Shown piece after piece: positions 2,053 to 3,076 of a stretch of DNA of 64,000 nucleotides (position 1 is the first letter of the stretch; every line of letters starts with the position of its first letter). The stretch is taken from assembly GCA_026023565.1 (NCBI GenBank), contig JAPETS010000013.1:62001-126000 (forward strand), given 5' to 3'. The position numbers were made by a program, and so were the translations under genes. Under the pieces are notes generated by a model. It made no database searches, was not told the origin of the DNA, and worked only from the letters and a program-made list of their open reading frames with translations. The DNA is from Cirrosporium novae-zelandiae (lineage: Eukaryota).

Positions 2053-3076
2053 CTATCTTCTCTTCTCCGACCCAGACCCATCTCTCATACCAGGTGGTGG
2101 TGGTGGCAACGAATATCCACCAGGGGGTCCCTGCTGAGAGGATCCTGAAGGAGGGAATCCACCAGGGGCACCTGGAAATTGCGGGAAATTTCCGATCCCT
2201 GCGCCAGGGGGTGGGAATGGCATGCCAGCAGGGAAATTTGGGGGAGGTATTGTAGGGCCCGTAGATGTGGAGGGTGATGCGGAAGAAGGGGATGGTTGGG
2301 GGAATGGGAATGGAGGAGCGTTCATGCCACGGGCAGATGGGACTGGAACATTCATAGAATTAGCTAGTCATTGATATAGAGGGGGAGTATTTGAACATGT
2401 GAGGAGAGTTCTCGGGAGGATTGGGGAAGTAGGGATGACGGAATTGTGGATGACAGGAGGGATATGAGAATATGAGTGTGCATACGAGGCGGTAGACCAC
2501 CGGGGCCAGATGTTGGCATATTCATTCCAAATGGAGGTGGAGGCATCACGCCAGGGCGAGCATTAGGCATGCCTGTAAAAGCATAATTAATATCATCTTT
2601 GTCGAGAGTAGAGGGCTATCTACCTGGGAATCCAAATGGCGGAGGAAAGCCAGGTGCGCCACCCACACCGGGCATTCCTGCACCAGGTGGATGTGCGCCC
2701 AGCATTGGATTCATTGCGCCTTGACCCTCAGCTGCGTAGGAATTGGTGATAGAATCGATAACTGATTGCGCTTTTTCATGGCTAATTTCTAGAAAGCAAT
2801 GTGGTTAACTTATAGTCCTCCAGAAAGGTTTGTGGAGGGACAAAGTACGTGAGTAGTACTCGACAACGTTTCTAAGATGGTTGCGCCCGCTATTATGAGC
2901 TTTGCGCACACTCATAGAATCGTGGGTGAGGTAGACATCGCAGTAATCGCCTTTGAATATTAGCTATATAAACGCGGATAGCTTCAACAGAACGCGTCTC
3001 GGAACCTACAGAAGAGTAAAGGAACTGTTAGCCAGACTTAAGAAATATGGGAGATGGAAGACTTATATTTCGGCAT
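2053..3076 (-). CDS. YHC1: U1 snRNP protein C (U1-C), 6 exons
   Basis: Spliced product [62 protein letters not shown]..., i.e. the matrin-type U1-C zinc finger followed by a Pro/Gly/Met-rich tail. Exon 1 3076-3067, AT-AC intron 3066-3016, microexon 3015-3010, GT-AG intron 3009-2951, then three more GT-AG introns. Confidence 0.93.

What the first reader, a model, noticed from the sequence alone, without database searches (positions are those of the whole stretch)
3016..3066. U1-C gene needs a non-canonical AT-AC intron with U2-type signals: possible splice-site-fidelity autoregulation
Seen on the minus strand: ATG CCG AAA T|ATAAGT...GCTAAC...CCTTTAC|TC TTC T|GTAGGT...AAAG|GC GAT TAC TGC. The AT-AC junction is the one I found that restores the conserved U1-C start MPKFFCDYCD. 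The donor ATAAGT is the major-spliceosome consensus GTAAGT with G1>A, not the U12 consensus ATATCCTT. The acceptor TAC is YAG with G>C, and the branch point is an ordinary GCTAAC. Established: A1 plus terminal C is the reciprocal-suppressor pair tolerated by the U2 spliceosome, Pezizomycotina are not known to keep the minor spliceosome, and U1-C stabilises U1 pairing at 5' splice sites. Inference: a deviant donor in the first intron of the donor-recognition factor could act as a feedback sensor of U1 snRNP activity. Two compensating changes make a sequencing error unlikely.
Basis: partly seen in the sequence, partly recalled or inferred. Interest (0 to 1): 0.82.

Follow-up and report, generated by a model that had tools for sequence, protein, structure and literature searches.

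The report
Conserved AT-AC intron in fungal U1-C
The gene for the splicing protein U1-C in this fungus starts with a rare intron that begins with AT and ends with AC, followed by a six-base exon; the same arrangement is found in many related moulds and lichen fungi and has led gene annotation astray, but nothing here shows that it regulates the gene.

Summary
On the minus strand, ATGCCGAAAT (3076-3067) is followed by a 51-nt intron ATAAGT...CTAAC...TAC (3066-3016), a 6-nt microexon TCTTCT (3015-3010), a 59-nt GT-AG intron (3009-2951) and the zf-U1 exon.

None of 787 GT/GC-AG paths restores MPK[FY][FY]CDYCD.

The intron is ancient, not a local oddity. DNA of 12 related loci has an intron at the same codon position:
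- 6 are ATAAGT...YAC.
- 5 are GT...AG and 1 is GC...AG.
- None is mixed.
- Lengths are similar except the 98-nt GC-AG intron, and each has a CTRAC branch 11-12 nt (19 nt in that one) from the 3' end.

Read-through protein models show the same covariation: 17 of 17 for AT/AC and 8 of 8 for G/AG. The AT-AC models come from Dothideomycetes, Eurotiomycetes and Lecanoromycetes. The window's gene matches a model from a Xylobotryomycetes species.

Best reading: a constitutive U2-type (type II) AT-AC intron, probably kept because reverting it needs two simultaneous changes.

No RNA data could be obtained. The autoregulation idea is untested, and comparative and mechanistic arguments weigh against it.

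The parts
3067..3076 (-). Coding part of exon 1, ATGCCGAAAT: Met-Pro-Lys plus the first base of codon 4
   Evidence: The same 10 nt (third codon positions vary) precede the intron in 12 related loci.
3016..3066 (-). Intron 1, 51 nt, AT-AC termini, phase 1
   Evidence: the only path to MPKFFCDYCD. Orthologous introns of 50-56 nt with AT-AC ends are in L021, L025, L029, L033, L067 and L081.
3061..3066 (-). 5' splice site ATAAGT: the U2-type consensus with A in place of G at +1
   Evidence: It is identical in all 6 related AT-AC loci. It matches the /ATAAGT consensus of metazoan U2-type AT-AC introns quoted in Gould 2016 (passage).
3027..3031 (-). Branch-site motif CTAAC; the presumed branch A at 3028 lies 12 nt from the last intron base
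   Evidence: A CTRAC motif lies 11-12 nt from the 3' end in all AT-AC and GT-AG orthologous introns, and 19 nt from it in the GC-AG one.
3016..3018 (-). 3' splice site TAC (YAC in place of YAG)
   Evidence: The related AT-AC loci end in TAC or CAC.
3010..3015 (-). 6-nt microexon TCTTCT: completes Phe4, encodes Phe5, and gives the first base of Cys6
   Evidence: TCTTCT or TCTTTT (a synonymous change) sits in the same place in L021, L025, L029, L033, L081, L001, L002, L038, L050 and L076.
2951..3009 (-). Intron 2, 59 nt, GTAGGT...AAAG, phase 1 inside the Cys6 codon
2849..2950 (-). Exon 3: the rest of the U1-C zinc finger
   Evidence: Pfam zf-U1 at E 2.5e-17. Identical to P0059.
2789..2848 (-). 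Intron 3, 60 nt, GT-AG
2624..2788 (-). Exon 4
   Evidence: 100% identical over 54 of 54 aa to P0059.
2573..2623 (-). Intron 4, 51 nt, GT-AG
2486..2572 (-). Exon 5
2343..2485 (-). Intron 5, 143 nt, GT-AG
2053..2342 (-). Exon 6 with the stop codon TAG at 2055-2053; Pro/Gly-rich tail

Best explanation
Intron 1 of the U1-C gene is a genuine, constitutively removed U2-type (type II) AT-AC intron. U1 and U6 recognise ATAAGT through positions +2 to +6, and U2 pairs with the CTAAC branch site. At exon ligation the A at the first intron position pairs non-canonically with the C at the last position, taking the place of the usual G-G pair. Splicing it, together with the neighbouring GT-AG intron, joins a 10-nt coding exon, a 6-nt microexon and exon 3. 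That encodes MPKFFC, which includes the first zinc ligand, Cys6. The intron is orthologous to an ordinary GT-AG intron at the same codon position in Sordariomycetes and Leotiomycetes. The AT-AC state is shared by Dothideomycetes, Eurotiomycetes, Lecanoromycetes and the Xylobotryomycetes species whose gene model matches this window. I infer that it persists mainly because reverting it needs two simultaneous substitutions in an essential gene. The observed ways out are loss of the intron, not reversion. Shown here: the sequence anatomy, the uniqueness of the path, the orthology and the covariation of the two end bases. Inferred: the actual splicing, the spliceosome that does it, and the reason the state persists.
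For: (1) This is the only path to the conserved N-terminus: 0 of 787 canonical paths, and 1 of 4,828 when AT and AC are allowed. (2) In DNA, of 81 fetched loci, 68 have an uninterrupted MPK[FY][FY]CDYCD, 1 is truncated, and 12 have an intron at the same phase-1 site. With the window that makes 13: 7 are ATAAGT...YAC (window, L021, L025, L029, L033, L067, L081; 6 distinct sequences), 5 are GT...AG (L001=L002, L038, L050, L076) and 1 is GC...AG (L070). None is mixed. (3) The architecture is the same in both states: 50-56 nt against 53-64 nt, with CTRAC 11-12 nt from the 3' end. Apart from the splice signals the introns show no sequence similarity. (4) Among 320 stored homologue models, mispredicted N-termini that read through the introns show an AT donor with an AC acceptor in 17 of 17 cases where both are visible, and a G donor with an AG acceptor in 8 of 8. 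None is mixed (the earlier subset gave 13 of 13 and 7 of 7). (5) Named AT-AC taxa fall in Dothideomycetes, Eurotiomycetes and Lecanoromycetes. Named G-type or intron-1-less taxa fall in Sordariomycetes and Leotiomycetes. The window's exon 4 is 100% identical to a model named for Cirrosporium novae-zelandiae, Xylobotryomycetes. (6) Indirect transcript support: one 90%-identity Aureobasidium cluster holds read-through models (MPKYK...[YH]SSVG) beside a model of A. pullulans EXF-150 that starts MPKFFCDYCD and is also held by Logan assemblies. The AT-AC locus L025 is 90.6% identical to that protein over 138 aa. An Aspergillus taichungensis model also starts MPKFFCDYCD. Intron-free, cDNA-like contigs whose nearest named relatives are Eurotiomycetes (L016, L037) encode the same start. 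(7) Literature: the U2-type AT-AC consensus is /ATAAGT, and the U12 consensus is /ATATCCTT (Gould 2016 passage). The first-last base interaction tolerates A-C (yeast review passage citing Parker & Siliciano 1993). No minor introns were found in Ascomycota. Cys6 of yeast Yhc1 is essential (abstract and passages).
Against: No RNA from this organism or a close relative could be examined: no run was listed and no genome is held. The junction 3067^3015 is therefore inferred. The models that start MPKFFCDYCD may have been shaped by homology and not by transcripts, and I could not see the DNA beneath them. The covariation could rest on as few as one evolutionary switch, because AT-AC taxa and GT-AG taxa fall into two large sister groups. 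The counts are therefore not independent events, and 5 of the 17 AT/AC models come from one Aureobasidium cluster. Inferring bases from read-through peptides is indirect. On inspection, at least two motif flags outside the paired counts were false (P0213, P0321). In L067 a TAG lies 3 nt upstream of the AC and would give an AT-AG alternative with one extra residue. The two-mutation-barrier explanation is an argument, not a measurement.
Confidence: 0.8

Rival explanations
1. Autoregulatory sensor. The A at +1 makes the U1-C pre-mRNA unusually dependent on U1 snRNP or U1-C activity, so the yield of productive mRNA feeds back on the level of U1-C.
For: The deviant ends have been kept across several fungal classes. 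U1-C gives extra stability to 5' splice sites mismatched at +1 in binding assays (Kondo 2015 passage). Cross-regulation within the U1 snRNP by alternative splicing exists in human cells (PMC3798272; title and start of abstract seen). In the window, retaining intron 1 gives a stop after 12 codons.
Against: The sign is wrong for homeostasis: if U1-C helps its own weak site, more U1-C makes more U1-C. The same site is GT-AG, GC-AG or has no intron in other Pezizomycotina with the same protein. The introns share no element beyond the splice signals. The in-frame stop on retention is not conserved: the Aureobasidium-type intron reads through. The main defect of a non-G first base is at exon ligation, where U1-C plays no part. 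No expression data are available.
Confidence: 0.08
2. Orthogonal ends enforce inclusion of the 6-nt microexon. An A-first donor can be ligated only to a C-last acceptor, and the G-first donor of intron 2 only to the AG. Skipping the microexon (exon 1 joined to exon 3) is therefore blocked at the second step, which protects Phe4 and Phe5.
For: In the G-type lineages, gene predictors produce exactly the skipped product MPKCDYCD in 13 stored models (7, 6 more). The skip is therefore sterically and frame-wise available with GT...AG ends. With AT at the first donor, the skip would need an AT-AG pair. Most AT-AC cases carry the microexon.
Against: GT-AG introns with the same microexon exist in L001, L038, L050 and L076. 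AT-AC also persists where intron 2, and so the microexon, is gone: L067, P0033, P0056. There is thus no clear association. A wrong branch choice would still waste transcripts. The idea has not been tested.
Confidence: 0.1
3. The intron is U12-type and is removed by a minor spliceosome.
For: AT-AC termini are typical of one class of U12-type introns.
Against: The donor is ATAAGT, not ATATCC. No TCCTTAAC-like branch box lies at a usable distance; the TTCCTTTAC stretch sits at the very 3' end and has T where the branch A would be. The orthologous introns are ordinary GT-AG introns with the same CTRAC branch. A survey of more than 3,000 genomes found no convincing minor introns in Ascomycota and loss of most minor snRNAs (passage).
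Confidence: 0.01
4. The path is not used. The gene starts elsewhere, or is a pseudogene, or the two bases are assembly errors.
For: No RNA evidence exists for this organism. The public model uses a different, chimeric start.
Against: Other starts lose Cys6, which is essential in yeast Yhc1, and lose Pfam profile positions 1-6. The same two bases recur in six other loci from independent assemblies. The remaining 213 residues are intact.
Confidence: 0.03

Closest known systems
U2-type (type II) AT-AC introns of animals, e.g. the SCN4A and SCN5A introns (Sheth et al. 2006, passages read; consensus quoted in Gould et al. 2016)
   Same: AT-AC termini on an otherwise major-type intron, with the same /ATAAGT donor consensus. 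Very rare: 24 among about 610,000 introns of five species. [quoted passage not shown]
   Different: This one is in a filamentous ascomycete, is only 51 nt long, and is followed by a 6-nt microexon. It lies in the gene of a U1 snRNP protein. It also has GT-AG and GC-AG orthologues that show the two ends switching together. Sheth et al. mention only hypothesised cases in fungal xylanase genes.
Engineered and natural AT-AC splicing in S. cerevisiae (Parker & Siliciano 1993 as cited; the RPL30 nested intron, Gould et al. 2016, passages read)
   Same: It occurs in a fungus without a minor spliceosome, and the A-first/C-last pair stands in for G/G at exon ligation.
   Different: The RPL30 AT-AC junctions make up about 1-2% of that gene's mRNA, their donor does not resemble ATAAGT, and their mechanism was left open. 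Here the AT-AC path is the only productive one, and its donor is the textbook U2-type form.
Cross-regulation of U1C and U1-70K by alternative splicing in human cells (PMC3798272; title and start of abstract seen)
   Same: It links the level of a U1 snRNP protein to a splicing decision in a U1 snRNP gene.
   Different: It acts on U1-70K, through an alternative exon, and has experimental support. Nothing comparable is shown for this intron.
U12-type AT-AC introns
   Same: The terminal dinucleotides.
   Different: The donor and branch consensus are not met, and the lineage is reported to lack the machinery.

Membership tests
U2-type (type II) AT-AC intron | The intron begins with AT and ends with AC | tested here: met
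   Positions 3066-3065 are AT and 3017-3016 are AC on the minus strand.
U2-type (type II) AT-AC intron | The 5' splice site fits the major-type consensus except at +1 (/ATAAGT) | tested here: met
   ATAAGT at 3066-3061. The consensus is as quoted. It is identical in 6 related AT-AC loci.
U2-type (type II) AT-AC intron | A major-type branch site at the usual distance from the 3' end | tested here: met
   CTAAC with the A 12 nt from the 3' end, placed as in the GT-AG orthologues.
U2-type (type II) AT-AC intron | The junction is used in mature mRNA | tested here: inconclusive
   No RNA run was listed. Support is indirect only: models in Aureobasidium and Aspergillus that start MPKFFCDYCD, and cDNA-like contigs.
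U2-type (type II) AT-AC intron | Removal depends on U1, U2, U4, U5 and U6, not on U11, U12, U4atac and U6atac | not testable with these tools
   This needs biochemistry or genetics. The literature reports that Ascomycota lack minor introns and most minor snRNAs.
U12-type intron | A /ATATCCTT-like 5' splice site | tested here: not met
   The donor is ATAAGTCT. The consensus is as quoted.
U12-type intron | A TCCTTAAC-like branch box about 10-15 nt from the 3' end (motif recalled, not from a call) | tested here: not met
   The only similar stretch, TTCCTTTAC, ends the intron and lacks the branch A. Related loci have no such box.
U12-type intron | Minor snRNA genes are present in the genome | not testable with these tools
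   No genome is held for this window. An Rfam scan of the window itself gave 0 matches.
U1-C / Yhc1 (Pfam zf-U1, PF06220) | An N-terminal C2H2-type U1 zinc finger | tested here: met
   Exon 3 alone scores E 2.5e-17 over profile positions 7-38. With MPKFFC in front, as in P0227 and P0332, positions 1-38 are covered.
Autoregulated splicing-factor gene | An unproductive isoform whose share changes with the level of the protein | not testable with these tools
   No expression data. No conserved intronic element beyond the splice signals.

The most novel reading that the evidence does not exclude
Selection, not merely the two-mutation barrier, keeps the A-first/C-last ends of U1-C intron 1 across a large part of the Pezizomycotina. 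They would act as an orthogonal splice-site address that forces inclusion of the 6-nt microexon, and/or make output of the 5'-splice-site recognition factor depend on the fidelity state of the spliceosome. That would be a built-in checkpoint in the gene of a core splicing protein.
Probability: 0.12. Interest if true: 0.8.

Novelty: new member of a known kind. Interest (0 to 1): 0.6.

Why it matters
1. This is a natural, long-lived example of a major-spliceosome AT-AC intron in fungi that lack the minor spliceosome. Its GT-AG and GC-AG orthologues show the first and last intron bases changing together. That is an evolutionary counterpart of the classic yeast suppression experiment.

2. It lies in an essential gene of genetically tractable moulds. 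The Penicillium- and Aureobasidium-like loci have the same arrangement. End swaps, microexon skipping and dependence on U1-C can therefore be tested directly.

3. It has practical consequences. Many public U1-C models in these classes are wrong. Some begin inside the zinc finger at MSVRK, some read through the introns, and some are fused to a neighbouring gene, as in the model that matches this window. All of these lack Cys6, which is essential in yeast.

4. Four full-text searches found no paper that describes an AT-AC intron in fungal U1-C. Subscription journals are not covered by that library.

Tried and rejected
- RNA evidence: no RNA holder was listed for window:2000-3400.
- Own genome: none is held, so no search for U11, U12, U4atac, U6atac or U1 snRNA genes was possible.
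- Rfam on the window: 0 matches at gathering score.
- Viral-contig scan: 8 pattern matches, none encoding a relative.
- Genome-contig scan: 94 pattern matches, of which 1 encodes a relative. That is L081, a fungal contig inside a record titled as a bacterial MAG.
- Earlier findings of this scan: nothing by words, by sequence or by place.
- Canonical alternatives: the GT two bases into ATAAGT (donor at 3062) gives only MPKYKFRDAFCDYCD or MPKYKRDYCD, through weak donors and a 38-44 nt second intron. Rejected.
- Microexon skipping (exon 1 joined to exon 3) would need AT-AG and would delete both Phe residues. Rejected as the productive path.
- A nested (twin) intron route cannot work, because the microexon lies in the middle and shifting the borders by one base changes the codons (reasoned).
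- Species-matched pairs of cDNA and genomic DNA: among the stored loci and proteins, none reached 90% identity over at least 70 aa for an AT-AC species apart from the Aureobasidium case.
- Motif flags for AG or AC acceptors seen alone (15 and 9 models) include false hits such as P0213 and P0321. I did not use them as evidence.
- Literature: searches found nothing on U1-C with AT-AC in fungi. I did not look at the supplements of the genome-wide splice-site surveys (Frey & Pucker 2020; Larue & Roy 2023), which might list this intron.
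Full report
**What is in the window**

Read on the minus strand, positions 3076-2941 are: ATGCCGAAAT | ATAAGT...GGCTAAC...CCTTTAC | TCTTCT | GTAGGT...TTCAAAG | GCGATTACTGC. The finding's coordinates 3016-3066 are exactly the first intervening segment, which is 51 nt long.

Exon 3 (2950-2849) translates to [33 protein letters not shown]. 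It matches Pfam zf-U1 at E 2.5e-17, but only over profile positions 7-38 of 38. Relatives that begin MPKFFCDYCD cover positions 1-38. The six missing residues, M-P-K-F-F-C, are what ATGCCGAAAT plus TCTTCT plus the first two bases of exon 3 encode.

Read straight through, the ATG gives [12 protein letters not shown] and then a stop.

A six-exon model (3076-3067, 3015-3010, 2950-2849, 2788-2624, 2572-2486, 2342-2053) gives 219 aa. Its last 213 residues are identical to a public protein model, P0059.

**Is there a canonical alternative?**

I enumerated every start codon and every path with one or two introns in the 750 nt upstream of exon 3 that keeps the frame open.
- With GT or GC donors and AG acceptors there are 787 such paths, and none gives MPK[FY][FY]CDYCD.
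- With AT donors and AC acceptors allowed in any combination there are 4,828 paths, and one gives it: 3066-3016 plus 3009-2951.
- From the ATG at 3076, the only canonical path that keeps the first zinc-finger cysteine gives MPKYKFRDAFCDYCD. It uses the poor donors GTCTTC and GTTGAA and a 38-nt second intron.

That cysteine matters. Changing Cys6 of yeast Yhc1 to alanine is lethal (Schwer & Shuman 2014, abstract and passages).

**Which organism**

Exon 4 is 100% identical over 54 of 54 residues to P0059, a protein that NCBI names for Cirrosporium novae-zelandiae. That species belongs to Pezizomycotina, class Xylobotryomycetes.

The public model is a chimera. It has an ORMDL domain (Pfam E 7.8e-56) fused to the U1-C zinc finger from profile position 5 onward. 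The annotation pipeline evidently found no canonical way into exon 3 and borrowed the upstream gene.

**Related DNA**

A scan of metagenome contigs kept 80 of 309 confirmed loci. A scan of prokaryote genome records gave one more, L081, which is a fungal contig inside a record titled as a bacterial MAG.

Of these 81 loci:
- 68 encode MPK[FY][FY]CDYCD without interruption.
- 1 (L024) is cut off upstream.
- 12 have an intron at exactly the same place, after the first base of codon 4.

Six of the 12 have AT-AC ends:
- L021: ATAAGT...GCAC | TCTTTT | GTAGGT
- L025, L029, L033: ATAAGT...CTAC | TCTTCT | GTAGGT
- L081: ATAAGT...GCAC | TCTTCT | GTAGGG
- L067: ATAAGT...GCAC, followed directly by the coding sequence, with no second intron

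Five have GT-AG ends with the same microexon (L001=L002, L038, L050, L076). One has GC-AG ends without the second intron (L070).

No locus combines an A-first donor with an AG acceptor, or a G-first donor with an AC acceptor.

The two kinds share their build:
- Lengths are 50-56 nt for AT-AC and 53-64 nt for GT-AG. The GC-AG intron is 98 nt.
- A CTAAC or CTGAC motif has its branch A 11-12 nt from the last intron base, or 19 nt in the GC-AG intron.
- There is a pyrimidine before the final AC or AG.

Outside these signals the introns are not alike. The microexon differs only by the synonymous change TCTTCT/TCTTTT.

By their downstream coding sequence, L021 resembles Penicillium models and L025 is 90.6% identical over 138 aa to an Aureobasidium pullulans protein. 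L050 and L076 are closest to Leotiomycetes models, and L070 to a Sordariales model.

**Related protein models**

Three searches returned 120 listed proteins each. With cluster members added, 320 homologue models were stored. Many are visibly mispredicted, and their read-through N-termini reveal the DNA underneath:
- MPKYK is ...AAA T|ATAAG.
- [HY]S[SF]VG is ...AC|TCTT[CT]T|GTAGG.
- LFC means the base before the microexon is C, and VFC means it is G.
- MPKCK is ...T|GTAAG.
- MPKFFCK means there is no first intron.
- MPKCDYCD is a model that skips the microexon.

Where both ends can be seen, an AT donor goes with an AC acceptor in 17 of 17 models, and a G donor with an AG acceptor in 8 of 8. None is mixed. 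On the first 224 models, with a slightly different rule set, the counts were 13 of 13 and 7 of 7.

These counts need caveats. Five of the 17 belong to one Aureobasidium cluster. The inference from peptide to base is indirect. Flags for an acceptor seen alone include false hits (P0213, P0321) and were not used.

Named AT-AC taxa:
- Dothideomycetes: Rhizodiscina, Sporormia, Aureobasidium, Clohesyomyces, Microthyrium
- Eurotiomycetes: Polytolypa, Penicillium capsulatum
- Lecanoromycetes: Lambiella

Named G-type or intron-1-less taxa:
- Sordariomycetes: Gaeumannomyces, Nemania
- Leotiomycetes: Hymenoscyphus, Lachnellula

All these classes come from taxonomy look-ups. The split coincides with the NCBI clade sordariomyceta against the rest of leotiomyceta. 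As few as one switch of both ends could therefore explain the pattern. Which state is ancestral remains open.

Within the AT-AC classes, some lineages have no N-terminal introns at all. Examples are the loci similar to the Exophiala model, L053-L060. Among the named models, I saw none from these classes with a G-type end.

**Transcript-level support is only indirect**

No sequencing run was listed for the window and no genome is held.

In Aureobasidium, one 90%-identity cluster contains three kinds of model:
- read-through models (MPKYKSTISPSTVLLLTFN[YH]SSVGDYCD...)
- models truncated to MSVRK...
- one model of A. pullulans EXF-150 that begins MPKFFCDYCD

The exact sequence of that last model is also held by Logan assemblies. 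If genes there are called as uninterrupted reading frames, it comes from a spliced transcript. I could not verify this.

An Aspergillus taichungensis model in a cluster of otherwise mispredicted Aspergillus models also starts MPKFFCDYCD.

Two short contigs carry a complete intron-free reading frame. Their nearest named relatives are Eurotiomycetes: L037 is 70% identical to the Polytolypa model, and L016 is 66% identical to the Rasamsonia model. Both encode MPKFFCDYCD.

None of these is a species-matched pair of genomic and cDNA sequence.

**Which spliceosome**

The donor ATAAGT is the consensus reported for the few dozen metazoan U2-type AT-AC introns. It is unlike the U12-type /ATATCCTT (Gould et al. 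2016, passages; Sheth et al. 2006 counted 24 such introns among about 610,000).

The branch motif and its distance match those of the GT-AG orthologues. The stretch TTCCTTTAC at the 3' end looks superficially like a U12 branch box (motif recalled). But it ends the intron, it has T at the branch position, and it is absent from the related loci.

Larue & Roy 2023 found no convincing minor introns in Ascomycota and loss of most minor snRNAs (passage).

The first and last intron bases form a non-Watson-Crick pair at exon ligation, and A-C can replace G-G (review passage citing Parker & Siliciano 1993). The paired ends seen in the related loci are what that rule predicts.

**Why it is there**

I think the most likely reason is historical. 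Once both ends had changed, changing either end back alone would produce a mismatched pair in an essential gene. The state is then trapped, and the only easy exit is loss of the whole intron. That is the exit I see in some lineages. This is inference.

In its favour are the long conservation and the finding that U1-C gives extra stability to 5' splice sites mismatched at +1 (Kondo et al. 2015, passage). Against it:
- That effect would produce positive feedback, not homeostatic feedback.
- Other Pezizomycotina with the same protein have ordinary ends, or no intron, at this site.
- The introns share nothing beyond the splice signals.
- A stop codon on intron retention is not conserved.
- The first intron bases matter chiefly at exon ligation, not at the U1 step.

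A second functional idea came up during the work. An A-first donor cannot be ligated to the downstream AG, so AT-AC ends would prevent skipping of the 6-nt microexon. Gene predictors make precisely that skip in 13 G-type models. The idea is weakened by two observations: GT-AG introns exist with the same microexon, and AT-AC introns exist where the second intron is gone.

**Novelty**

The kind is known. What appears new is this member:
- It is a constitutive U2-type AT-AC intron.
- It is followed by a 6-nt microexon.
- It lies at the start of the U1-C gene.
- It is conserved across at least four classes of filamentous ascomycetes.
- It has canonical orthologues that show both ends switching together.

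Four full-text searches found no description of it. The library does not cover subscription journals, and I did not open the supplements of the genome-wide surveys.

Noticed in passing
window about 4748-3900 (-) and 2950-2053 (-): The public protein model identical to this gene (P0059, 396 aa) is a chimera. An ORMDL-family gene upstream (Pfam E 7.8e-56) is fused to U1-C exon 3, which implies an intron of roughly 950 nt. The real exon 1 and the microexon are skipped.
   Followed up: partly
proteins P0181, P0167, P0143, P0147, P0149, P0170, P0129, P0162, P0186, P0215, P0216, P0308-P0311 and others: Many public U1-C models from Lecanoromycetes, Lichinomycetes, Geoglossomycetes, Eurotiomycetes and Aureobasidium start at an internal Met (MSVRK...). 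They therefore lack the first two zinc ligands. This appears to be systematic misannotation of the gene.
   Followed up: partly
L070:about 1100-1210; protein P0079: The same intron position carries GC-AG ends (donor GCACGT in L070; GCAAG inferred from the read-through peptide of P0079), with the second intron absent.
   Followed up: partly
L067:about 1140-1210: An AT-rich locus of unknown lineage has the AT-AC intron but no second intron, and it encodes MPKYFC. A TAG lies 3 nt upstream of the AC and would give an AT-AG alternative with one extra residue.
   Followed up: no
L081 (whole locus): A contig in a record titled as a Polyangiales bacterium MAG carries a fungal U1-C gene with introns. 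It is most likely a eukaryotic contig binned into a bacterial MAG.
   Followed up: no
proteins P0032, P0066, P0133, P0134, P0157, P0173, P0191, P0244, P0250, P0262, P0274, P0277, P0288: Thirteen models from Sordariomycetes and Leotiomycetes start MPKCDYCD. The predictor skipped the 6-nt microexon and deleted two conserved Phe residues.
   Followed up: no
window 1-64000: Rfam found no RNA family at gathering score anywhere in the window.
   Followed up: yes
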